Shown here one piece after another: positions 1-14,734 of a stretch of DNA of 64,000 nucleotides. This DNA is from Oopsacas minuta (taxonomy: Eukaryota; Animalia; Porifera). Location: positions 605,715 through 669,714 of the forward strand of contig JAKMXF010000188.1 of the NCBI GenBank assembly GCA_024704765.1, given 5' to 3'. Positions within the stretch are counted from its first letter, which is position 1. Every line of letters begins with the position of its first letter. Under the pieces are notes generated by a model. That model was not told the origin of the DNA. It saw only the letters and a list, made by a program, of their open reading frames with translations, and made no database searches. Made by a program: the position numbers and the translations under genes.

Positions 1-560
1 TATTTCCGAATCGCTGGATTTTATCTTACCAAAGCCCTGTAATTTATATTTGTTACAGAATTTGTCCTAAAGTAAAATTAAGTTATGGTTTATACTATTT
101 ATCCTACATGTAATCTCTCTATTTTGAAAACTTATATTTTATCTCCGCGAATAAGATAGTAAAACAATCTAACGAACTGATCCTTATCAGATAGATAATT
201 AAGGTAATTGTTAATTATTTGTGCTTGTTTTGGTATTGTCACGCCAGCCAAAAGTTATATGGTCCCCTCTGACCTCATTTAGCTGGCCAAATTTGGTCGC
301 CAAAAATGTTCTCTATAGTTCAGATTAGGTCCCTCGGGCCAGTTTTAGCCAAACATAACTAGTCTGGGGACACTTTTGGTCGACTAAAGTTGGTCCAGGG
401 TCAAAATTTTTGAAATATCTCACCGACTTTCAAATTCGTTTACGGTAAAATTTAGAGTACCCCGAAAACAGAACAATATTGTGTACTTATTGATGTCCCG
501 TAATTCGCTAATAATAGACACAATTCACACAAAAGATGTTGCAGTTTAGGGACGTGCTTG
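1..560 (+). repeat. Dispersed repeat 'element A', copy 1; starts at or before the window edge
   Basis: 1–35 recurs at 9891–9925. 33–170 recurs at 12040–12175. The reverse complement of 165–560 recurs at 13130–13510. All alignments read directly from the sequence. Confidence 0.7.
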
Positions 561-1980
561 GTGTGCGCGCGTGCACACCAGTGTAATCGCGTGTATACCA
601 ACATGGTAGACCAACATGTTGGTGTACACGTGTGCACACTGGTGTATGGCCATGCAATAATAAAATGTTCTCTTCTGGTTCTTTATTAAATAATATAATT
701 AGCGATACATAGTTCTAATTATAGAGATACAAATATATTTAATTATAGTATATATATCTTAACTTTCCATAACAATTCAGTAATATGCAGAAATAGATTT
801 TCAGTAATATGCAGAAATAGATTTCTATTCAGCTCGGAACCTCAATCTATCACTGGGGAAAAGTACGTAATTATCTTTGTATTTTGACTTGTTTGTTCAG
901 TTTATAGCGATAGCAGACACAGAGTTTAAGGTTTGTTTGATTTGTGTCTATTTAGTAATAAATGTCTTTGGTTAATTGTTCCATAATTGTTCAGTTCGTA
1001 AATGGTCAACATTCTATTATAGTAATCTGGGATTTCTTCTCACAGAAATTTACCATAATTCTTCGACTGAAACACTTCGAAACCATTGTTATGCATGTAC
1101 TTGTGTCCACATTTATTACTAATCTACAAGGTTGAAACCAATTGAACCGAATATCAGTATTATGAATAGCAACCCAACCGGTTACTGATTTCGGTTTGCA
1201 ACCGAATATTGAACTATTCTCCAAACACAGTATTATTCGGTTGCAAACTTGCTAATTAATTTGTGTCTAGAATTTGTTCCCATCCATTCTAATCCAATCC
1301 ATGTTTGGATAAGACGCACACTCGGATAGTACTGAAAATATTGTTCCCCTCGGTGTACTGTTTTCCCCGAGTTCCACTTTTCGTAATTACCTTTAGCAAA
1401 TTGTTTTGAACAAACAATTAAGATTACTTACTACACTACTACATGGATGGCCTAGTAACTAGAACATCTTAATATGAACTAGATATGAACTAGACTCTAG
1501 TTCATATCTAATTACGTTACAACGGTTAACTCCGTACTGTTACCACATAATAATTCCAAATTGTCCAATACAAATTATTTATAATCTGCTTGACTACTCG
1601 TGTAGCGAAGTGTCTGTATTATCCAATTTAAAATAATTTTTGAGACTGAGCAATAAATCTTTATTTTATTCTAATTATAAACTAATGATTTGACAACTTA
1701 AAAGTCCTAAAAAATATTAAGTGATGACTTGTGTTATACGTAATGACTATTCTCTCTGCTAGTAGTATGTTATGTGAACTTGTTAAAACAAGTGTGACCC
1801 TTATGGCATTTAGTGTTGCAACTTCTACCTTATTTCTTGCAAGGGCACCTTAGTGTTTTACAGTGCTTACATCTACATGCTGAACCACTGAGCTCCAGAG
1901 AAGCACTTTGCATTGCTCCCGTTTGACTGACTATAGAAGTATGGCAAGACTCATTTGCACTGATTCTGAATGGACAAACA

Positions 1981-3433
1981 TCACTGATTCCTTGCATAGC
2001 CAGAGGAAATAGTGCCATGTGATGTAGCTACAGTATAAATAGGATCCTGTGCGTCGATGATATGACCCATAAGATTGCGTGGTCCAATCGAACTCATCTT
2101 ATCAGGTTGGGAAATGGGTATAAGCACAGTATCACCGATTTCAGCTGGTTTGAATTTTTTCCCACTTGACTTTAGCATACGATCATGTAGTGTTTCCTGA
2201 TTTCTTTTTATTCCTTTTCGTAAATGATGGGTATTTGTACTCTTTTCTTTGGGAAAACAACCTTGATACCACACTGAGCTCCCAAATCCCTCTTCCCCTT
2301 GTTGAATTCCGCAAGGTATGTGGACAAAACGACAACACTCAGGGCAAGAGTATACTCCACTTGTTTCATTCTCACATACAGCACAAAGTTAGTTGAATTG
2401 GTTGGATTTATATTTGAAACTATTGATGAACTACTAGATAGACGTCTGATGGGAAACTGTTTCTCAGTAATTAAATTATCTGATTCAAGAGCTCTAATTT
2501 GATTCTCCAGAATTACTGGAATACTTGATGTTGGGGTTTCAAAATTACTGTTATATTCTATACCATCGACAATTGTGCCAGGTGGAACTGTATCTAATAT
2601 TGAGAATTCATAATCGTCGGAAATAGGCGGGAACTTAGATAAATATGGAGACTGGTTCATTAGGATACTCTTCTGTATATGTAGGCACTTCGTTATCAGA
2701 CAAGTTAGATGATTCAGATGATTCATGAACAGATGCTGAGATTGGATCAGCAACAGATGTTTGTTAAAAGTTATTCAAATCGTCTTCGTTATTAATCACA
2801 CCTCAATGTTCTTTAGGAACATTAAGAGTGGCGAGTCCGAAGAATGGAGGTCTGCCATATACAGCTTCAAATGGCGTCATTCGAATAGTTGTATGGTAAC
2901 TTGTGTTGTAGTTAAATTTTACCCACTTTAAATACTGTACCCAGCATTGATTATTATTATTATCATGCATCATGGCAAATAATCCGTCTTTAACTTCTCT
3001 ATTCACACATTCTGCTGCCCCCTGACACTCAGGATGCCTGGGTTTGCCATGCACAATTTTCGTAGAGGGCCAAGTATCTCGCAAAGTTTCGAATAGAAGG
3101 CGATTTGAGAATTCTCCTCCATTATCAGAATGCAATATTAGAGGTGGGCCTTGATCGCAGAATATTTCAATTAAAATATCACGAACATTTTCTGCTGTTT
3201 TTCTAACTACGTAGTGGGACCAAGTTTATTTTTTTGGTAAAATGGTCAATGTAGACAAAAAGGTATTTATAGGGTGTGACTCCATCTGGTGACATGTTTT
3301 CAGCCAGATTCATATCTCTGAAATCTATGAGATCAATTTGACCTCTGCTCAGGTAATTTCTTGATACGATTGGCTTGGTAACTACAGACTTTATGGATTT
3401 CTTTCCCCTTTTTAGATGGCAAGTTGGACACAT
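1981..3433 (-). pseudogene. Ty3/gypsy-type integrase (rve core plus GPY/F module), fragmented by frameshifts
   Basis: ORF 3203..3433 carries CPTCH…GQIDLIDF…YLFVYIDHFTK (zinc-finger end plus first catalytic D). ORF 2803..3135 carries HSDNGGEF…HPECQGAAECVNREVK…YNTSYHTTIRMTPFEAVYG (second D and E). ORF 1981..2274 carries GDTVLI…GPRNLMGHII (GPY/F). The three pieces lie in different frames. Confidence 0.8.
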
Positions 3434-3705
3434 TTTGACATAAATACCACACAGTTCTTCAGTAACTCCAAGTAATATTGACTAACTCTCTTACACAATT
3501 TTGTCCTTCCTGAATGTTCGTGATTTTTGCGTGAAATTCTTCTAGGACATCGTAGATTTCATTACTTACCAATACTCTATTGGCATTGTGTCTGTTTGCT
3601 TCACGAAGGTATAGGGTTCCAACACTTTGATATGAAAGAAGTTTAAATCTATTCTGAACCCTTTGTCACTTTTGTCTTGCATTTTTTCTGTAGGTTTCTG
3701 TGATT

Positions 3706-3942
3706 TCAGGATGCAGATTTTTGCTCTATTTCTTCAGGTGAGAATATATTAATGGGTGAATCAGCCAGTTTCTTCTCGTCAAGAATTTTTATGAACTCTT
3801 CTCTTCCGGTAGGACCAGGGTTCAATTCAATATCTCCCGATAAAAGGAGAAGAATAGATAGATTTGGATATTTCCTTAATGATAACCATCGTGAGAAAGG
3901 AAATAGATGTTGTCGTTTGGTTTGAGATGAAGGGGAACGATA
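3706..3942 (-). other. Stop-to-stop ORF with no ATG, containing a canonical 2A-like ribosome-skipping motif; motif at 3811–3837
   Basis: The minus-strand translation reads …RKYPNLSILLLLSGDIELNPGPTGREEFIKILDEKK…. This matches the D(V/I)ExNPGP consensus exactly, with the hydrophobic upstream stretch typical of 2A peptides. It lies about 270 bp 5' of the integrase remnant on the same strand but in a different frame. Confidence 0.55.
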
Positions 3943-4424
3943 TTAAGAAACAATTTGGTAAGGCGCTGATGGTGATTATAAAATGCAACAAATATCTACG
4001 AGTTATCTGATTTTATCAAGTTAACCGGGATACACTTAGAGCTCGGATGGATATGTAGAGTACTTTTATAGAATTGAAGATCATCATTTGTCACCAATGG
4101 AATTAAGGATATAGTCCGTGCTTCGAGCTCGAGACCCACAATGTTTCCATGTAGAATGTACATAAAATACATTATTAGTAATATAATGACGAACTTTGGA
4201 ATGAAAATCATTGTATAATACAAGCAGTATTCAAGAAGATAAATATATCTTTCCTTGTGCTTGAGTATATATGTATTTAATATTTCCTCCAGCATACATT
4301 GTAATGTTGTCACAAATTATGTCATATTATTTTATATTAATTATTGATATTCCCTTTCATTTCTAGGTGCTAGCAACTCAAATACTTTTTCAAAGGATCG
4401 TGAAACATTACGATGTTGATAACA

Positions 4425-4487
4425 ATGATATAATAATGATATAATAATGATATAATAATGATATAATAATGATATAATAATGATAAT
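4425..4487. repeat. Minisatellite (ATGATATAATA)n, about 5.5 copies
   Basis: Direct tandem repetition seen in the sequence. Confidence 0.9.
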
Positions 4488-4818
4488 TAATGCACTGCAA
4501 CATATTTATTATGTTTAATTTCGTATTTAGTAAAGAACCAGAAGAGAACATTTTATTATGGCATGGCCATACATCAGTGTGTACACCAAGCACGTCCATA
4601 AACTGCAACACAAGCACTTAAGTTTTGTCCAATTTTTGAAATCTCAAAATTTGAAAAATTGCTTTGTCATCATCACCTCCACTATGGTGACGTCATGGTT
4701 ATGGTGGCCAATGCGTCCCTCCTAATATCTACTACACTTCATCAAATGTAAGTATTTCTCTAGCTGCATTGTTATAAAGTTCTTTGCGTTTCAAGTTAAA
4801 GTGGTTAATGACGTTTTT

Positions 4819-4914
4819 TTGACAAAATGGTCCGGGAGGACTATTTTTGTCAAATGTCAATATCCATGGTATTTGACAAAAAATGGTCCCCCCGGACCAT
4901 TTTTGTCAAAACAT
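4819..4914. repeat. Two adjacent 38-bp palindromes (TTTGACAAAATGGTCC…GGACCATTTTTGTCAAA)
   Basis: Each unit is self-complementary. The two copies sit at 4819–4856 and 4877–4914. Confidence 0.7.
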
Positions 4915-5610: not shown

Positions 5611-7662
5611 TTAGAGCATCTGTAGACAGTTGTCCTCTTTCATGTCACCAACTGTAACATAGCCAGATCGTTGTATAAATATGCAAGAGGGACGGAATAT
5701 TTGACACAATCCATGTCCTGTTTCACAAACTGTTTCTATGAATTTACCAAACTGGTCAAACACTTTGATGGAATTATCCCAGAAATCGCATATGTATATT
5801 CTCAATTCATCTGTGATAGGATTATAGAACAGGTTGAAGTTGTATGCTCCTACAATCTGATCCTCTGTAAGTATAGACACTATGAATTTTCCTTCTAGAG
5901 AGAACCTTTGTAGAGGAGAGGGAGATCCTGTGAAGAGACATATAACACAATTATCAACAACCTTCATGTCCTGTAGTCATGGATACCTGTTGGGTATCTT
6001 GGTCTGCAGAATAGGATTAAGTGGGTATTCTTGTTCTATACAGAGAGGATCTACCTGTATACGGATGAGACTGGGCTTAAGAGTCCCCACATACAAATGC
6101 GTACTGTTAGAGGAGGTACAACAAGCCTGTGGTATTGAGATGTGGTGTTCACGATTCATGCTAAATATATGCATACTATCTTCCCATGTTAAGCTGAATT
6201 GTGCTAATAAACTTGTATAGCACACGAATAAGGACTGTTTGAAGTATGTCAATGAGACAGGAGTATCAGGCAAACGAGGAGAATGATGCGAAGACTTAGC
6301 TACAAGATCATCAGCTCTGAGGACTGTGATTGTATCACCGTATCTATCCGCTACTATTACGTTATTCATAACCGCAATTATACCAGCTGGTGTATCTAAT
6401 TGGTGACCTCCTTCTCCACCTCTATCAACACCAGATGCCACAGGGATGTTCCTTTCTTCTTTGGGTGGAGCTATCAACATGGGATCGTTATCAGTGTCGA
6501 TAGCAAATGAAGGAATGTTTATTCTGTTGTCGTAATAGCGACGGATTGCTCTTTGTAAAAGATCATATATATCCTTCAAATCCTTATCCTCCTTATTCTT
6601 CCTGACGAGATATTCTAGTGACCTAGCGTCTCTGTACAGGAAAGATAGTTCATTGAATGTGAAAGTCACATTCTCCTCAACAAGTGCATACATATCCTCC
6701 ATCTTTATGCAGTTCTCTTCTATCCTATCTGCATTTCTGGTTTCCAACTCATCTCTAGCTATCGCACACTCCATATTGAGTCTGTTTAGCCTCATGTCAT
6801 ACTCCTGACGTGTGATACCCCCGGGAAGCAGGTCTCTCTTGGATGGATTTACTGGTTTCATATCTCCCTCTATTTCAGGATCTACATAGAAAATGAATTC
6901 TCCATCAATCAAGTGTGTCGCTCTCTCCCTCATTAAATATGAACACCAAGGTTCTGGAATAGGATAAGTCCTCATCTTTAAGATCTCTGCCTTCAGTCTC
7001 AGTCTCAGAGATTCGTATCTCTTTACTATCACACTCTCGATCGGTTTTGGGAGTTTAAGCTCTAGCCAATTCTGAATTCTATGAATCTTTTCCTCAGCTG
7101 TCTCCTTCCACATGATGAGACCGTTTAGGGAGTATAGGGAAGGTTCTGCTAGAGTCATCTCTATGTAGTAGAGGCTGTCTTTGATTTCAATAGGAAGGTA
7201 GTCATCGATGATTAGTAAAGATATTTTATGTAAATGCTTGTCGTATCGCTCCTGGAATGAATCTTTGAGAGGGATAGGAAGTATTTTACTGGAGATTACA
7301 GATTCATAATCTTTGTAGAGAGCTGGTAACTTGATAAGAATTCTACCAATGATTACGTTATATGGTGCTATAATTCCTTCCATTTCATTGAGGATATTTG
7401 GTATCCTAACAATATTCCTGTACTCTTGTATTATTCCGGTATATCGTGCCTTCAAGGATACACGTGTTTCTTTGGACAGTATGGAGGCCTTCTTGCTATT
7501 TAGAGTTTCCATTTCCAACTGGAACCCTCTAGACAATTCGGAAATTTCGTTAACTGTAATTTCTTGTAAGTCAATGGACAGAATTTCCTGTAATCTATCC
7601 TTGTACTTCTTCAACATCTTCTCAGCTTTTGAAGGTGTTACCTGGCTCATGTTTGTTGCCAT
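5611..7662 (-). CDS. Coiled-coil plus NHL-repeat protein (no RING or B-box); the reading frame is interrupted by a single in-frame TGA at 5977–5979
   Basis: ORF 5977..7662 (561 aa) and ORF 5611..5967 (118 aa) are in the same frame, separated only by one TGA plus 9 nt. The C-terminal part carries NHL-like units (GGEGGHQLDTPAGIIAVMNNVIVADRYGDTITVL; LRIYICDFWDNSIKVFD). The ATG at 7660–7662 has a plausible context. Confidence 0.6.
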
Positions 7663-9890
7663 TTCAAATATTATTTGTCTTCAGTTAATATTTATTTATT
7701 ATAATTGTTATATCAGTTCTTTTATAAATTATCTCTTCTTTAGAATTTGTATTAGAATTAAGTATTACTTTCAATGTGAAGTAATGTGTTTCATAATGTG
7801 GCTTAATAATAGGCACAATTAGCGACACAATTACATAATTGCTTTCTATGAAACTGAAATTAAAGTTTAATTCATAGGAAATCTGTGTTTGAAAGCAAAC
7901 AAATTAATTTCAATGATTTGTTTACCAAATAGAGTTAATTAAATTATATTCAGTTTCATAAACAAAGATCAAATTGTCTTTTAAATGGATCCATTTGGTC
8001 TCTCTAGTTTAAAGAGGTAAGAGGATCCCTTGGACAGAAACAGAACCATTCAATGTAGATAGTTCTAGGAAATCAAACTAACACCTATAATCCTATATGA
8101 TGTATTAAAGGAAGTATTCCAAATACCTTTGTATTAGAAGAAGATGTGTTGACTTTCTTCTTTTTCCTTCCAAACTAAGTAAATACACAAATAATATAAA
8201 ACCAACATATAGCAATATGGAACTATGGTATACATAGTATGTAAATTGGGTGTTATAATATGAAACTATAAACATACATCATCATATTCACCATCTGATT
8301 CTCTCTTAATTTACTCTACTGCTTCTCTCTCATTAAAACCTCCTCCAATACCTAGAAATTCTCAGAGATTTTGAGAGATATCTCTTAGATATTGGAAACA
8401 CTTCGTTGATTAATCACATTCCATTCAATAACTGATATGAATTTGTATAACCTTTTATCACCTTTCCCAGATATCTACACACACACACCAAATTTAAGTT
8501 TGTAGCTCTTAACAGTTCCTCATTAAGTTTGAACAAAACAAACAAATCTTATTATTATTTACTTTAGATAATACTAGCCGCAACGCCGCCCTTTGAGCGG
8601 CTTTTTCTGCTAGTTCCTGCGGAATGCTTTTTCTGGCCTTCGGCCCTCACCATTGCTTTTTGGAGTTTGCGAACGCTACGCGCAAGCATGTATTTTCCTA
8701 TGCAATTGTACAAAATTGATGATCTTAACTTTTTTCAGTAAAGGATCATCAATTTTGTATTAATTGTATAGGAAAATATTCTTGTTTGTTTCGTAAAATG
8801 TTCCTTCTTTGGGAGAAGTTGGGTATCACTCTCTCTGCATTACGCCACGGGATCAATAAACTGTGAATTGTAACTATTGTAATTGGTAGAATCTGAATGA
8901 ACCAAATTCCCAGACTTTTTCATATTATACGAAGAAAGGAATCTGATTGGCCAACATTGACCGATCAGATTCCTCCGAAAATGCATTGATATATATAGGC
9001 GAGGTGTGAAAAATTCATATATCTTGTTCAAAAATGGTTCGATTCAAAAATGATTCTTAATTGGAAAGGTTGAGTACTACTTAGTCGACACACAAAATTT
9101 GGTTCGAATTGACCCAGGCATCTCTGAGGAAATGCGCGGACACTCACACACATACTTTGTTTTAAATATATACTAATAACAAACATTACTATGTATTGGT
9201 TTGACTTTACCATTGCCATTTTCCCTAATGTGCCTCAAATTAATAATTAATGCAGTTATGTATTGATTTATTATCTATTGTTCAAATTTACGAGAAAGTG
9301 GGTGAGGGTGTACGCTCCATTGGAAAAATTTAGACGAAAAGCTGGCGCGTGCTCTGTTTTGAGACATGAAATGTAGAACGAAAGCCCCCTCCAAGAATTG
9401 AGGAGCGTAACCTAACCAGCCATAATTCCATGCCCCTCACCCTAATATTGTGTTTACTAAATAGGTATATTTCTCAATCTAAAGTGACAATATACTACCC
9501 GAATGGCAAAAAGTGATTTCGTATAAACTATAAAATTTCGGCTGTTTACTATTTACAAAAGTTAGAGTTTGTCTGATGAATGTAACAATTAAATAATTCG
9601 TTAGTTAACTACTTATATAGTTAGTCAATCAACATAATACATTGAGCATATGTATAGCTGTAGTCGCTTTTCTTATATTGGAGGAATAAAAAATGCTTAT
9701 AGCCAAAATTTACAGTAAGCTGTAGCTACTACGTATTTTAGTACGTAACCTCATCACTAGTCAAATTTGCTCAAATCATTATACAAGGCCGTCTATGATC
9801 CTGTTATGTTATTAAACATAAGCAATGGATCATAATATGTTCATAAAGGCCGAACAGTTATATTTATTTTAGTCCCAGAATATCACCGAA

Positions 9891-9925
9891 TATTTCCGAA
9901 TCGCTGGATTTTATCTTACCAAAGC
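9891..9925 (+). repeat. Element-A 5' piece (identical to 1–35), truncated by insertion of the TIR element
   Basis: 35/35 identity to 1–35. The continuation of element A (33–170) resumes at 12040–12175. Confidence 0.8.
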
Positions 9926-12040
9926 AGTTTGCAGAAATCCATCCCCCGTTGCAAAATCGGTCCGGGGGGATCGATTTCTGCAAATAACTCAATGCAGAAA
10001 TCTATCCCCCCTTATATGTATTGTTTGTAAGTTTCAGGAGTGATTATATAATTGTTTTAGATTAATAAGCATGACTATCATTATACACTTAGCTGAAATA
10101 CTTCCTTCCATTAACAACAATATATTTATTATGTAATATATGTTACTACGTAAACAGTCAAATTACGTACTTTCGCAGGCTAATTATAGCCTCAGAGAAA
10201 GTCTAAGAGCAATACTTACAATTTTCGAAAAGTTTTATATTATTTCACATAAATGGATCTAAATGAGTATGTTGTTATTGAAGATTCCTTGAATCTGCGA
10301 AGGTATCCGCTCAATTCAACCAAAAATATCAAAAGAGGATTTTTAATTTTCTACTCTTTGGGGTAATAAAAAGTACAAATTATTCAATAAAAGTTCTACT
10401 CCCAGTGATACAACAACTATTAACTATTTCAAATGCTCCAAACCGTTCTGGAATGCAAATCCTGGATGTGGGAACTGAATCATTTTCGTCATTACAATCA
10501 CTAGAAGATATCTGCGTTGAATGAGGTGGGGAATACAGCGGAGTAAAGCTTGTCAACACTTGTCCCTTTGATAACATCATCACTATCCTAAGTATCCATC
10601 TGAAAACTATCTTGACTTCATTTGAGTTAGACTGCACTTCCGTTTCAGAAGATTTGGAAACGACTATGATTAAGGCTCGAAGTTTCAACCAATTAAGATG
10701 TTGGTTTGCACCTATACTAAATATCAAACTAGTTGATTCTCGTTACGATTTTATTGGGTACTAGAGATGTGTAACAAAACTATTGAAAGATCTACACTTG
10801 TGTTGTAATTTTTACCAAATTGAATTCCAGTGCTGGAGCTGTTCTTGTTGTTTTTCTGAAAGGAAAATTGACATATCTTCAATATACAACTTTACAAAAG
10901 GTTATCAGATGAGTATAGACACTCAAATCTCTTTAGCCTATCACTGCCTGAAATGTAGAGATGTTAGTGCAAACATTGAAGATATTTCTCATGTATTTAT
11001 AAGGATACCAACTGTCTTAATTGTTGAAGTTGGACACCTCAATGCGAAGCAACCTATCCAACCAATTCAAATCGATGATATTTTATCCCTAAAGCACAAA
11101 AACTACCGTCTATAATATAGTGTGATTGGCTACACTATCCATGCTAGACTACACTTTAACATGCGGATAACTTATGATGATATATGGTATAGTTATGATG
11201 GAATGGAACATCCTAAGATAGTTAAAACGAACAAATGTAGCGACATAACTTTAGGACTTATTTACTGTATCTTTTGTGTACTAACATCTATATACCCAAT
11301 TAGTTCTCAAATAGGTAGTTAACATCTGTATTATTGATGCTATTGTTTTTGTTCAAATATTTACCAGAACAGTTATTGACTCTTGATACGTAAGTTTTGA
11401 GGCAAATAAGCTAATATTAGTATACAATTACACAAAGATATACTAGTGATATGCAGTAGATACCGGTTATAAGGACATATTTTCATACACCGAGGGTGTT
11501 TTGTAAAGCGCTTTCCACTAGAGATTAATTTCTAATTTGATTAAAGTATACATTTATAAAAATACATAACTCTACCACAATTCTTCGTCTATTCTCCCGT
11601 TCGGATTAGCAAGGGTTATTATATATATATCTTAATAGCTTGAGAAACTTTTTGATTCAAAGTTTACTATTTTGAGTCAAAGTATCAAGTGAGAACCCAA
11701 ACATACATAAACTATAGCTGAACACAGATAAGATAACCTACGGGAAACAAAATTACTATGTATTATCCAAATACAACTATACTATCTATATACGTACAAT
11801 GTTTCTTGATTATCTATATCGTTATTATATTTATACTCATCACGTAATGCTAAGTGTATTATGATAGTCATGCTTATTAATCTAAAACAATTGTATAATC
11901 ACTCCTGAAACCTTACAAACAATACATGTAAGGAGGGATAGATTTCTGCATTGAGATATTTGCCGATATAAAACATTAACCTTATATTCAAGTCTGCTTA
12001 CCCCCTGATCGATTGTGTAGGGGATGGATCTCTGCAAAAC
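9926..12040. mobile_element. Non-autonomous TIR DNA transposon (about 2.1 kb) with about 170–190 bp terminal inverted repeats and a 5-bp TSD (AAAGC), inserted into a copy of element A
   Basis: Left TIR 9926–10093 and right TIR 11849–12040 are reverse complements (termini AGTTTGCAGAAATCCATCCCC / GGGGATGGATCTCTGCAAAAC). The flanking AAAGC at 9921–9925 is duplicated at 12041–12045. The uninterrupted target …ACCAAAGCCCTGTAATT… is seen at 26–45. Confidence 0.65.
10783..11322 (+). pseudogene. USP (peptidase C19)-like C-terminal fragment inside the TIR element; two ORFs with a frameshift
   Basis: YHCLKCRDVSANIEDISHVFIRIPTVLIVEVGHLNAKQ resembles the USP zinc-ribbon and 'P.vL.ihLkRF' segment. KNYRL/IGYTIHARLHF…DDIWYSYDGMEHPKIV resembles the His-box (YdL.aVv.H.G…GHY…WY.fdD..V). 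There is no N-terminal Cys box. Confidence 0.45.
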
Positions 12041-12175
12041 AAAGCCCTGTAATTTGCATTTGTTATAGAATTTGTCCTAAAGTAAAATTAAGTTATGGAA
12101 TTTATCCTACATGTAATCTCTCTATTTTGAAAACTTACATTTTATCTCCGCGAATAAGATACTCATCCTCATCAA
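12040..12175 (+). repeat. Element-A piece (matches 33–170)
   Basis: Direct alignment with a few substitutions. Confidence 0.8.
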
Positions 12176-12739
12176 GCGATCTGTACAATGTTTTACGAAA
12201 GCGATAGTGCACTTAACAATCACAAAGATTAAGATTCCGAAATTTCACTACTAGGGGTAAGCAGACTTGAATATAAGGTTGTATACTCCTGATTTGCATC
12301 AGATTGTACTAGTAATCAAAACAATTTATATAGAATATTGAAATAAAGTAATCTTTCCAACCTTTACTATGCTGACTATAGTATATGTATTCTATTGATC
12401 TCAATGGAATGTTTGCTTTTAGTTCCGTATGCCCTCTATAGATAAACGTTTACTTGATTAAGAGCTAAAAATTGGTCAAAGGGTTCGTTGTGAACTCTAA
12501 ATTTGCACCTTGGTATACTACTTTTGATCTGACACAATATGCCACTTTGTGCCACTTTAATATTTTCACATTGAAATTATACTAGTTTATGTACTATTAA
12601 GTACAAGGAGCAAAATTGCAGTATGAGGTTGTCTACACTATAGGATGGTACTAAAATAAATTTAGCTTAGTATACATTGAGTTTATTATGAAACAATAAT
12701 TATAATTATCAACACATTAGACATAATTTGCGCGTCATT

Positions 12740-13510
12740 AATCACTTTAACTTGAAACGCAAAGAACTTTATAACGATAGCAGCTAGAGAAATACTTACA
12801 TTTGATGAAGTGTAGTAGATATTAGGAGGGACGCATTGGCCACCATAACCATGACGTCACCATAGTGGAGGTGATGATGACAAAGCAATTTTTCAAATTT
12901 TGAGATTTCAAAAATTGGACAAAACTTAAGTGTTTGCACATATTCACAAAAATATTATGCTAAGTAGTCATGACGTCACGGAATACTAAAATGTTAATAA
13001 CTCCTTTTGTAACAGATAGAATAATACTTATAATTAATGGAATGTAGTAGAGGTTGGGCAGCATACATTGGAGAATATAATAATGACGTCATAGTGCCCT
13101 GAGATCTAGCGGAGCCCCTACTTATACCCCTATACGACAATAATACATCTTTTGTGTGAATTGTGTCTATCATTAGCGGATTACGGGAGATCAATAAGTA
13201 CACAATATTGTTCTGTTTTCGGGGTACTCTAAATTTTCCCTTAAACGAATTTGAAAGTCGGTGAGATATTTCAAAAATTTGACCCTGGACCAACTTTAGC
13301 CGACCAAAAGTGGCCCCAGACTAGTTATAGCTGGCAAAAACTGGCCCAAGGGACCTATCTCAACTATAGGGAACATTTTTGGCGACCAAATTTGGTCAGC
13401 TAAATGAGGTCAGGGGGGACCATATAATTTTTGGTTGGCGTGACAATACCAAAACAAGCACAAATAATTAACAATTATCTTAATTATCTATCTGATAAGG
13501 ATCAGTTCGT
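12740..13510 (-). repeat. Inverted duplicate of the flanks of the 547–4620 element: reverse complement of 4621–4790, then a 190-bp unique filler, then reverse complement of 165–560
   Basis: Reverse-complement alignment read from the sequence. It lacks the integrase element, so it represents the empty-site state. Confidence 0.75.
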
Positions 13511-14275: not shown

Positions 14276-14734
14276 ATTACAGTGTTAAAATTCGCATACG
14301 CCTAGATGAAATCCTGGACCAAGGTTTGATCCAAGTTGGCCAACTGCAAAAACGTTAATGCACACCAATGGTAAGCCACTGTATTTATGAAAGGGGGTAA
14401 GAATCGGACGCAACAGGTCAGCTTTATAGAACTTGACTGGGACGTTGAATGTTCCCATTTAGGTTAGACCGTTTGAGTGAACAGGATAAATATATTCCAT
14501 TAGCTTTGTATTATCTGAACCAATAGAATTAACTCTGAATTCAATAGAAATCCTTTAATCCTTGGCTCAGGAAATAATTGGGTATATAGGCATTATATCA
14601 CTTAGGTAACAGTTAGATATATATTTAAAGGAATATTAGAATTACATAATAATCACCTTAGCACGAACACATATTATGAGAATATTGTTAAAGTTTGACG
14701 CCATTTACACCAAGTCATTGATGCAATATGTTTA

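What the first reader, a model, noticed from the sequence alone, without database searches (positions are those of the whole stretch)
3706..3942. Canonical 2A-like ribosome-skipping peptide (LLLLSGDIELNPGP) upstream of a gypsy-type integrase inside a TIR-bounded element
The minus-strand frame reads …KYPNLSILLLLSGDIELNPGP|TGREEF…. D-I-E-L-N-P-G-P matches D(V/I)ExNPGP at all constrained positions, and the hydrophobic upstream run is typical. The same SGDIELNPGP string occurs in functional viral 2As (my recollection is rotavirus C). A chance match in a 64-kb six-frame space is of order 1e-4. 2A-like sequences are known in some non-LTR retrotransposons and a few cellular genes. One sitting in front of an integrase carried between terminal inverted repeats would be a new context. 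There it would separate an upstream product from the integrase.
Basis: partly seen in the sequence, partly recalled or inferred. Interest (0 to 1): 0.75.

Follow-up and report, generated by a model that had tools for sequence, protein, structure and literature searches.

The report
2A skipping peptide on sponge transposase
The motif is real: it is the decayed remnant of a virus-like "ribosome-skipping" 2A peptide that a family of cut-and-paste DNA transposons in glass sponges carries, in frame, directly in front of its integrase-like transposase. I found no report of a 2A in this setting.

Summary
Observation confirmed. The minus strand at 3811-3837 reads GDIELNPGP after a Leu-rich run. It is the only D[VI]ExNPGP in the window, where about 4e-5 are expected by chance.

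The window is Oopsacas minuta, a glass sponge. The motif lies inside a roughly 4.1-kb Ginger2-type DNA transposon (537-4610). The element has TGTTG...CAACA inverted termini and a KRBA2/SCAND3-like integrase gene. This copy is dead: its reading frame holds 15 stops.

Intact relatives settle the interpretation. Three subfamilies carry GD(V/I)E(S/L)NPGP in frame with the transposase, inside TIRs with 4-bp duplications. One host assembly is shown to be a glass sponge.
- All 11 near-identical copies that cover the N-terminus keep the motif.
- The motif's codons vary synonymously.
- The four core variants equal viral 2As listed as 82-99% active.
- Relatives without a 2A start with Met 1-4 residues from the skip site.
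- 2A-bearing transposases have no Met near their N-terminus.

The piece upstream is not a conserved protein. It is a 37-138 aa fast-evolving hydrophobic leader (dN/dS 0.70 against 0.16 for the transposase).

2As at the start of non-LTR retrotransposon ORFs are known. I found no report for a DNA transposon. Skipping activity is inferred, not tested.

The parts
4505..4610 (-). Terminal inverted repeat at the 5' end of the element relative to the gene. It ends ...CTGCAACA on the + strand, i.e. it begins TGTTGCAG on the gene strand.
   Evidence: Inverted-repeat pairs I1 and I2. Alignment of both arms and the L001 terminus. The terminal 28-mer is found only at the two ends. The same TGTTGCAGT terminus occurs in L002-L005.
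4408..4495 (.). 11-nt tandem repeat (ATAATAATGAT, about 7 copies) in the subterminal region just inside the TIR.
   Evidence: Direct-repeat family D1. Relatives also carry subterminal short repeats. Its role is not tested.
3838..4313 (-). Decayed leader region upstream of the 2A core. It includes the 105-codon ORF 3996-4313 and the Leu-rich run ILLLL (3855-3841).
   Evidence: The translation is homologous to the leader of the L001 copy, P0002 (...FYNHHQ...). Leaders of intact relatives stay open for 110-138 codons.
3811..3837 (-). 2A / StopGo core G-D-I-E-L-N-P-G-P. The predicted skip lies between Gly (3816-3814) and Pro (3813-3811).
   Evidence: The same core is conserved in frame in relatives. 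It is identical to the human rotavirus C core.
2767..3810 (-). Transposase N-terminal region, H2C2 zinc-finger region and DDE integrase core. It is a pseudogene: local frameshifts and 15 stops in the net frame.
   Evidence: Pfam rve, 2.2e-10. tblastn to P0004 and P0007 covers 3918-2767. Three-frame translations.
1773..2766 (-). Transposase C-terminal half: linker, SCAND3-type zinc finger and Cys-rich tail. Also disrupted.
   Evidence: Pfam Znf_SCAND3 matches at 1.9e-05, but its 24.9 bits fall below the curated cut-off of 27. 86-91% identity over two stretches (112 and 141 aa) to O. minuta LOD99_3874, P0021.
537..695 (+). Terminal inverted repeat at the 3' end of the element relative to the gene. 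It begins TGTTGCAG.
   Evidence: The flanking 4-mers (AAGA and CAAG) do not match, so no target-site duplication is recognisable for this old copy.

Best explanation
The motif is the relic of a genuine 2A/StopGo module at the N-terminus of the transposase gene of a Ginger2-type cut-and-paste DNA transposon family of glass sponges.

In intact copies, translation is inferred to work as follows.
1. It starts at an AUG in a long, rapidly evolving leader of up to about 135 codons. The leader has a hydrophobic N-terminus and a hydrophobic helix directly before the motif.
2. At ...GD(V/I)E(S/L)NPG|P the ribosome fails to form the Gly-Pro bond and releases the leader.
3. The ribosome carries on, so the transposase is made as a separate protein beginning with Pro.

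That product corresponds residue for residue to the complete transposase of related elements that lack the 2A and start with Met at that point. The 2A therefore strips an N-terminal leader; it does not separate two functional proteins.

What is shown:
- the motif and its frame;
- its conservation under selection;
- the transposon anatomy;
- the leader's lack of conservation;
- the transposase's loss of its own start codon.

What is inferred:
- that skipping actually happens in sponge cells;
- why the leader exists. The likely roles are those proposed for N-terminal 2As elsewhere: lowering or tuning transposase output, or partitioning product between membrane-targeted unskipped protein and free skipped protein.

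The copy in this window is a dead pseudogene in Oopsacas minuta and does nothing now.
For: Motif and chance.

Host: the neighbouring 561-aa ORF is exactly O. minuta KAI6655611.1.

In-frame 2A plus integrase in intact predicted proteins, at 50-54% identity to the window copy:
- P0004, ...LLKLSGDVESNPGPTRYDEF...;
- P0006, ...ILLGGDIESNPGPQSREES...;
- P0007, ...ILIAGDIELNPGPQPKEES....
P0004 is encoded at two loci that are 99.55% identical over 3.57 kb.

Full-length coding capacity: L012 has a 784-codon spliced ORF open from the leader ATG through the whole transposase. L004 covers residues 4-629 of a 630-aa 2A-less transposase.

Selection on the motif:
- All 11 members of the 90%-identity clusters that reach the N-terminus keep GD[VI]E[SL]NPGP.
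- The G, N, P, G and P codons differ synonymously between copies; all four Gly codons are used at the skip-site Gly.
- Across leaders of the three subfamilies, the only invariant columns are Met1 and G, D, E, N, P, G, P.

The leader is an add-on:
- 2A-less relatives (P0005, P0012 from Vazella transcripts, P0013, P0022) begin with Met 1-4 residues from the NPGP| position.
- There is no NPGP anywhere in the P0005 contig.
- After the 2A, the first Met in P0004 and P0007 lies about 50 and 200 residues downstream.

The leader is not a protein domain:
- no Pfam hit;
- dN/dS 0.70 against 0.16 for the transposase;
- AF2 pLDDT below 50 for residues 20-103, but a helix at 104-127 directly before the motif;
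- hydrophobic peaks at residue 1 and just before the 2A, which are absent from 2A-less relatives.

Activity precedent: the four cores seen (GDIELNPGP, GDVESNPGP, GDIESNPGP, GDVELNPGP) are all listed with 82-99% cleavage in viruses (PMC8623073). StopGo works in all eukaryotic systems tested (PMC12846837).

Transposon anatomy:
- TIRs, with TGTTGCAGT termini in every copy;
- 4-bp duplications: TATA (L002, L005) and CATG (L004).
These match the published Ginger2 description (PMC2836005).
Against: No experiment shows skipping for these sequences, and context upstream of the core can abolish activity.

The window copy and the other two O. minuta-type copies seen (P0001, L001) are degraded. No intact member of the window's own subfamily was recovered.

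In L002 and L003 the leader frame has no in-frame ATG; the gene caller used GTG. The true start, or a 5' exon, is therefore unknown for that subfamily.

Gene models come from automatic callers, without transcript support for the 2A-bearing forms.

A 2026 preprint reports that many eukaryotic 2A-like peptides lower protein abundance or cause fall-off rather than clean skipping (PMC13405545).
Confidence: 0.8

Rival explanations
1. The motif is conserved and translated, but its main effect is not clean separation. Either it acts with the hydrophobic leader as a signal or anchor sequence that sends unskipped protein to the secretory pathway (dual targeting), or it acts as a translational brake or fall-off site that keeps transposase levels low.
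For: The leader has a hydrophobic N-terminus (Kyte-Doolittle 2.3-2.65) in subfamilies B and C and a hydrophobic helix before the 2A. Relatives without a 2A have neither.

N-terminal 2A-like sequences of sea-urchin NLRs work both as signal sequences and as recoding elements (PMC4981915).

Down-regulation of the downstream product was proposed for non-LTR 2As (PMC3708506). Reduction and fall-off classes are common among eukaryotic 2A-likes (PMC13405545).
Against: This overlaps with the best explanation rather than excluding it.

The cores are identical to viral cores listed as 82-99% active.

The transposase needs a free nuclear form. It has no start codon of its own, so some productive skipping or fusion product must exist.

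No signal-peptide predictor could be run.
Confidence: 0.15
2. The motif comes from a different element, for example the 5' end of a non-LTR retrotransposon (where N-terminal 2As are known) or a viral insertion. On this view it merely sits next to the integrase in this window.
For: 2A-like sequences are documented at the N-termini of non-LTR ORFs (PMC3708506). The window copy is broken, so adjacency alone would not prove a common ORF.
Against: In intact relatives the motif and the integrase share one uninterrupted ORF inside the TIRs. The same arrangement recurs in three subfamilies whose transposases are 55-57% identical to one another. No reverse transcriptase or endonuclease lies nearby. In the window the motif is in the same net frame as the integrase core.
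Confidence: 0.02
3. The motif is a chance match in non-coding or decayed sequence, with no biological meaning.
For: The surrounding frame in the window is full of stops.
Against: About 4e-5 matches are expected per window. The motif recurs at the homologous position in every related copy examined, with synonymous codon changes.
Confidence: 0.01

Closest known systems
N-terminal 2A-like sequences of APE-type non-LTR retrotransposons (L1Tc, Ingi, CR1, L2, Rex1; Heras 2006, Odon 2013, PMC3708506)
   Same: - A canonical GD(V/I)ExNPGP lies within the first 40-140 residues of a transposable element's main ORF.
- It is preceded by a short region that is not conserved.
- It is present in some lineages and absent in close relatives, and it decays in dead copies.
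- The proposed roles are the same: release of the enzyme from upstream sequence, or self-restraint of its level.
   Different: - Here the element is a class II cut-and-paste DNA transposon (Ginger2), with TIRs and a DDE integrase-like transposase. There is no reverse transcriptase, no RNA intermediate and no ORF1/ORF2 logic.
- The host is a glass sponge, a phylum not among those listed in that work.
Ginger2/TDD DNA transposons and their domesticated derivatives KRBA2 and SCAND3/ZBED9 (Bao 2010 PMC2836005; Llorens 2012 PMC3575427)
   Same: - Termini of the TGTNR type.
- 4-bp target-site duplications at TATA-like sites.
- TIRs of about 90-335 bp.
- An H2C2 plus DDE integrase-like transposase without GPY/F or YPYY motifs.
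- A SCAND3-type zinc finger.
- Best named hits are 'KRAB-A domain-containing protein 2-like'.
- An intron in the transposase gene.
   Different: - Neither Ginger paper consulted was found to mention a 2A or any N-terminal recoding module. A term search of Bao 2010 could not include '2A', and only the outline of Llorens 2012 was read.
- The 150 best cluster representatives outside the sponge clade do not have one.
- The TIRs here are somewhat longer than the 50-180 bp reported.
2A-like N-terminal signal sequences of sea-urchin NOD-like receptors (Roulston 2016, PMC4981915)
   Same: A hydrophobic N-terminal peptide ends in NPGP at the very start of a protein whose functional form lacks it.
   Different: - There the whole leader is about 20-30 aa and is itself the signal sequence of a host immune gene.
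- Here the leader is up to 138 aa with two hydrophobic segments, and it belongs to a mobile element.
- Signal activity is not tested here.
Viral 2A/StopGo peptides (FMDV, ERAV, ERBV-1, rotavirus C, cypoviruses)
   Same: The 9-residue cores are identical, and a Leu-rich helical segment lies upstream.
   Different: Viral 2As separate functional polyprotein domains. Here nothing recognisable lies upstream.

Membership tests
2A / StopGo recoding peptide | C-terminal core D(V/I)ExNPGP, usually preceded by G | tested here: met
   GDIELNPGP at 3837-3811(-). Relatives have GDVESNPGP, GDIESNPGP, GDIELNPGP and GDVELNPGP.
2A / StopGo recoding peptide | Upstream 10-20 residues that are Leu-rich or helical and would occupy the exit tunnel | tested here: met
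   ILLLLS in the window. LLLKLS, LIILIA and LFILLG in relatives. AF2 predicts a helix at 104-127 directly before the core in P0006. Hydropathy peaks of 2.1-3.1.
2A / StopGo recoding peptide | Lies inside a translated ORF, in frame with the downstream protein | tested here: inconclusive
   Window copy: the net frame is the same as the integrase core, but the alignment in that frame crosses 15 stops, so it is a pseudogene. Intact relatives: met. The ORFs of P0004, P0006, P0007 and P0226 are continuous, and L012 has a 784-codon spliced ORF. No transcript or ribosome evidence exists for the 2A-bearing forms.
2A / StopGo recoding peptide | Demonstrated failure of Gly-Pro bond formation, giving two products | not testable with these tools
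   The only support is by analogy: identical cores are listed at 82-99% activity in viruses (PMC8623073).
Ginger2 DNA transposon | Terminal inverted repeats with TGTNR termini | tested here: met
   TGTTGCAG... at window 537 and its reverse complement at 4610. The same termini occur in L002, L003, L004 and L005. TIR lengths are about 90-160 nt in the window and 230-335 nt in relatives. The published range is 50-180 bp.
Ginger2 DNA transposon | 4-bp target-site duplication, with a preference for AT-rich RTATAY-like targets | tested here: inconclusive
   Relatives: TATA (L002, L005), CATG (L004) and TACA (second element in L003). Window copy: the flanks AAGA and CAAG do not match.
Ginger2 DNA transposon | [quoted passage not shown] | tested here: met
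   Pfam rve. H..H...C..C columns are nearly invariant in alignment A4. No GP[YF] or YP[YF]Y in P0202, P0004, P0006, P0007, P0011 or P0021.
Ginger2 DNA transposon | Phylogenetic placement with Ginger2, KRBA2 and SCAND3 integrases | tested here: inconclusive
   No tree was built. Support comes from the named hits 'KRAB-A domain-containing protein 2-like' and 'SCAN domain-containing protein', and from Pfam Znf_SCAND3. Llorens 2012 places those in the Ginger2 clade.
Ginger2 DNA transposon | Multiple copies or evidence of mobility | tested here: met
   Two loci are 99.55% identical over 3.57 kb with different flanks. The 90%-identity clusters have 13 and 32 members (P0004 and P0007 clusters), and their listed members lie on many different contigs. 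One insertion is nested.
Non-LTR retrotransposon with N-terminal 2A | Reverse transcriptase and APE endonuclease downstream of the 2A | tested here: not met
   Downstream is an rve integrase plus Znf_SCAND3. No RT or APE appears in the window element or in any related locus.

The most novel reading that the evidence does not exclude
In glass-sponge genomes a 'hydrophobic leader plus 2A' cassette may be a portable N-terminal module used by unrelated class II transposons, not only by Ginger2.

The same 15-residue string, LLLLSGDIELNPGPT, is encoded with different codons as a leader exon in another context. There it is spliced in frame onto a 1624-aa ORF that is followed by Helitron Rep domains (L007).

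If this is general, N-terminal StopGo would be a recurrent solution across TE classes, acquired convergently. It would let an element translate its enzyme from long, unconstrained upstream sequence while controlling dose or localisation. A simple cut-and-paste system would then offer a tractable way to ask what N-terminal 2As are for, a question still open for non-LTR elements.
Probability: 0.3. Interest if true: 0.75.

Novelty: new variant of a known kind. Interest (0 to 1): 0.62.

Why it matters
2A/StopGo is regarded as mainly a device of RNA viruses. In cells it is rare, known chiefly from non-LTR retrotransposons and a few gene families, and what an N-terminal 2A does there is unresolved.

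This finding puts a conserved, selected 2A on a DNA transposon's transposase. There is no RNA-template cis-preference and no ORF1/ORF2 stoichiometry to explain it. Close relatives that simply start with Met at the skip site provide a natural control.

That narrows the possible functions to three:
- removal of a leader;
- control of dose;
- control of localisation.

It also gives a compact system in which to test them, using a transposition assay with and without NPGP. It adds Porifera (Hexactinellida) and class II elements to the known distribution. It also supports repeated independent acquisition of the motif.

Tried and rejected
- **P0001 context.** The look-up of the O. minuta protein P0001 (LOD99_8591) found no contig on record. 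Its genomic context was not seen.
- **Other copies in the window.** None found. tblastn with five family proteins hits only 3918-1773.
- **Intact copy of the window's own subfamily.** Not recovered. L001 has the 2A/integrase part and the TIR/C-terminal part in opposite orientations about 6 kb apart, with other transposon genes between them.
- **Target-site duplication of the window copy.** Not recognisable.
- **Is the leader a known protein?** Pfam on four leaders gave nothing at E up to 0.1. Alignment across subfamilies gave 18-25% identity. AF2 gave pLDDT below 50. I therefore rejected the idea of a conserved second protein.
- **Is the 2A general to Ginger2/KRBA2-like integrases?** No. Of the 150 best 50%-identity cluster representatives, only P0073 and P0096 have it, and both belong to the sponge subfamilies. 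P0048 shows a decayed version...SKTGP.
- **Prior reports.** I searched the full text for '2A-like' with Ginger, transposon and DNA transposon, and for NPGP with transposase. I also term-searched the main text of two large 2A surveys (Rao 2025, PMC12338488, and the 2026 preprint PMC13405545) for integrase, transposase, transposon, KRAB, sponge and Porifera. No match for this context. Their supplementary tables are not held. The O. minuta protein may therefore sit uncommented in one of those lists.
- **Structure.** No fold search was run. The AF2 model served only to compare leader and transposase confidence.

Full report
**1. The observation**

The minus strand of window 3706-3942 translates to ...RKYPNLSILLLLSGDIELNPGPTGREEFIKILDEKKLADSPINIFSPEEIEQKSAS*. 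The core G-D-I-E-L-N-P-G-P occupies 3837-3811, and the Gly|Pro junction lies at 3814|3813.

It is the only D[VI]ExNPGP in all six frames. There is just one other NPGP in the window, at 14310 and unrelated. From the window's own six-frame residue frequencies, 3.8e-5 such matches are expected. None of 300 first-order Markov simulations of the window had one.

GDIELNPGP is the core listed for human rotavirus C, with about 82% cleavage, and for Kashmir bee virus (PMC8623073).

**2. Where the window comes from and what surrounds the motif**

The window is AT-rich (30-42% G+C) eukaryotic DNA. The intronless 561-aa ORF at 5977-7662(-) is identical to Oopsacas minuta KAI6655611.1 (LOD99_2109). The window is therefore from this hexactinellid (glass) sponge.

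Downstream of the motif on the same strand lie three features:
- an rve integrase core (Pfam 2.2e-10);
- a weak match to the SCAND3-type zinc finger (24.9 bits, below the Pfam cut-off of 27);
- a Cys-rich tail.

The C-terminal part is 86-91% identical over two stretches (112 and 141 aa) to O. minuta LOD99_3874.

Inverted repeats at 537-~695 and ~4505-4610 bracket the gene. They start TGTTGCAG and are found only there.

The copy is dead. The integrase is spread over three frames. An alignment in the net frame, which is also the frame of the 2A, crosses 15 stops. No second copy exists in the window.

**3. Related copies decide the interpretation**

A search with the 124-aa region around the motif found three proteins:
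- an annotated O. minuta protein (LOD99_8591, ...LLLLSGDIELNPGPTGGEEF...);
- an ENA protein (P0002) whose contig has the 2A ORF followed by an rve ORF on the same strand;
- a third, weak hit (P0003, E = 4.1), taken up under 'Seen in passing'.

A search with the reconstructed 2A-plus-integrase found intact predicted proteins in which the motif and the integrase share one ORF:
- P0004, MKQKRTIYTSQFLSYIIAVFVELLLKLSGDVESNPGPTRYDEF...;
- P0006, ...LFILLGGDIESNPGPQSREES...;
- P0007, ...LIILIAGDIELNPGPQPKEES....

In the 90%-identity clusters of P0004, P0007 and P0096, every member that reaches the N-terminus (11 of 11) has an intact GD[VI]E[SL]NPGP.

A profile search of 1.84 billion cluster representatives found 345 relatives at E up to 1e-30. 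Among the best 150, only two further N-terminal fragments (P0073, P0096) carry the motif. One more (P0048) shows a decayed ...GDIESKTGP. The 2A is thus a trait of a narrow clade, not of Ginger2/KRBA2-like integrases in general.

The host of at least one assembly with intact copies (ERZ25072740) is another glass sponge. The CDS1 gene next to the L002 element is 73% identical to O. minuta CDS1 and at most 48% identical to that of any other named organism. A 2A-less relative (P0012) is a Vazella pourtalesii transcript.

**4. The elements are Ginger2-type DNA transposons**

L002 and L003 share 3.57 kb at 99.55% identity, with unrelated flanks. Each element starts TGTTGCAGT and ends ACTGCAACA.

| Element | Span | TIR | Target-site duplication |
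|---|---|---|---|
| L002 | 9168-12624 | 296 nt, 99% | TATA |
| L004 | 9329-12682 | about 230 + 72 nt | CATG |
| L005 | 9217-12805 | not summarised | TATA |

These features match the published definition of Ginger2: TGTNR termini, 4-bp duplications and RTATAY-like targets (PMC2836005). The transposases have the H2C2 and DDE regions but neither GPY/F nor YPYY. The named hits are KRBA2-like or SCAN-domain proteins, which derive from Ginger2 (PMC3575427).

L012 carries a 784-codon ORF from the leader ATG to the stop once one GTAAGT...TTTTAG intron is removed. L004 covers residues 4-629 of a 630-aa 2A-less transposase.

**5. Evidence that the motif is selected and that it replaces the start of the transposase**

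Codon alignment of five copies shows synonymous differences at the G, N, P, G and P codons. All four Gly codons are used at the skip-site Gly, while the amino acids stay fixed.

Aligning the leaders of the three subfamilies leaves only Met1 and G-D-x-E-x-N-P-G-P invariant. The rest is 18-25% identical.

2A-less relatives begin M-SRIEF, MDLKKQNF, MAKQEF and MFNRKEQF, exactly where the 2A-bearing ones read NPGP-TGREEF, -TRYDEF or -QSKEESF. The P0005 contig has no NPGP in any frame.

After the 2A, the first Met in P0004 is about 50 residues downstream, and in P0007 about 200 residues downstream. A full-length transposase can therefore only be made by translating through the leader.

**6. What lies upstream**

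The leader ORF stays open for 110-138 codons in four lineages of subfamilies B and C, and for 109 codons in P0002.

It looks like a translated spacer rather than a second protein:
- no Pfam match;
- between two family C copies it evolves at dN/dS 0.70, against 0.16 for the transposase, with only whole-codon indels;
- it is modelled at pLDDT below 50, apart from an N-terminal helix and a helix (104-127) that runs into the motif.

Its two hydrophobic segments, at residues 1-15 and directly before the 2A, are the only shared features. They are missing from 2A-less relatives.

In L002 and L003 the frame is open but has no ATG; the called start is GTG. The start for that subfamily is therefore unresolved.

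**7. Mechanism**

The most likely mechanism is StopGo at NPG|P. This releases the leader and continues with a Pro-initiated transposase equivalent to the native enzyme of 2A-less relatives.

The four cores present are each listed as 82-99% active in viruses. StopGo works in all eukaryotic systems tested (PMC12846837).

The biological purpose is inferred. Published proposals for N-terminal 2As are down-regulation or self-restraint of the downstream enzyme (PMC3708506; PMC13405545) and partitioning between secretory and cytosolic pools (PMC4981915). The hydrophobic leader makes the second proposal worth testing.

**8. Comparison with what is known, and novelty**

N-terminal 2As in transposable elements are established for APE-type non-LTR retrotransposons. 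One case has been reported C-terminal to a Ty3-like reverse transcriptase.

I found no mention of a 2A on a DNA transposon, an integrase-like transposase or a sponge gene. This covers full-text searches of the library held and term searches of the main text of two large 2A surveys. Their supplementary lists could not be read. Because LOD99_8591 is in public databases, it may already be listed somewhere without comment.

I therefore rate this a new variant of a known kind.

**9. Seen in passing**

P0003, the weak third hit of the 124-aa search, carries the same 15-residue string LLLLSGDIELNPGPT written in different codons. On its contig the string forms a leader exon that would splice in frame onto a 1624-aa ORF. 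That ORF has GDSL-lipase and 2OG-oxygenase domains and is followed by DUF6570 and Helitron_like_N. This hints that the cassette is used by more than one class II element.

Noticed in passing
L007 6001-6148 and 6289-11129 (also L008, L009, L010): A leader exon ending ...RFLLLLSGDIELNPGPTTSFVQTNDRTVFTDKK is followed by a GT...AG interval. The interval would join it in frame to a 1624-aa ORF with GDSL-lipase and 2OG-Fe(II) oxygenase domains. DUF6570 and Helitron_like_N ORFs follow. The 2A string is the same 15 residues as in the window but uses different codons. This is a possible second DNA-transposon context for an N-terminal 2A. The host organism is unknown.
   Followed up: partly
L003 4369-8304: A second Ginger2 element with the same TGTTGCAGT termini, a TACA duplication and a 656-aa rve plus Znf_SCAND3 gene, but no NPGP. 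It lies in the same genome as the 2A-bearing family, so 2A-bearing and 2A-less families coexist.
   Followed up: partly
L002 9032-13755 around 9168-12624: The autonomous copy (TSD TATA) lies inside another pair of identical termini flanked by TACA. It appears to be nested in a short non-autonomous derivative of the same family.
   Followed up: partly
L002/L003 about 9680-10000: The leader frame is open for about 130 codons but contains no ATG; the gene caller used GTG. Near-identical copies elsewhere (P0213, P0221) have different N-terminal starts caused by small indels. How translation starts in this subfamily is unexplained.
   Followed up: partly
window 4408-4495: An 11-nt unit (ATAATAATGAT) is repeated about seven times in tandem just inside the right TIR of the element. 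Relatives also have short subterminal repeats.
   Followed up: no
window 4813-4910 and 9928-9984: Short palindromic units (AAAATGGTCCGGGAGGACTATTTTT and its complement) that look like a small MITE or hairpin repeat. Related copies lie 5 kb apart.
   Followed up: no
window 1-35 and 9891-9925: An exact 35-nt direct repeat 9.9 kb apart. Its extent beyond the window start is unknown.
   Followed up: no
window 5611-7662 (-): The intronless 561-aa ORF equals O. minuta LOD99_2109 and has no Pfam domain. It is followed directly by a 118-aa ORF with a weak match to a 6-bladed beta-propeller (NHL-like). The two may be one gene split by a frameshift or an intron. A faint DUF5128 gene also lies next to the L012 element.
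   Followed up: no
P0048 (cluster representative, locus not fetched): A family B relative whose motif reads LKLSGDIESKTGP, with NPGP mutated to KTGP. It is an example of decay of the motif in a copy that otherwise aligns from the 2A onward.
   Followed up: no
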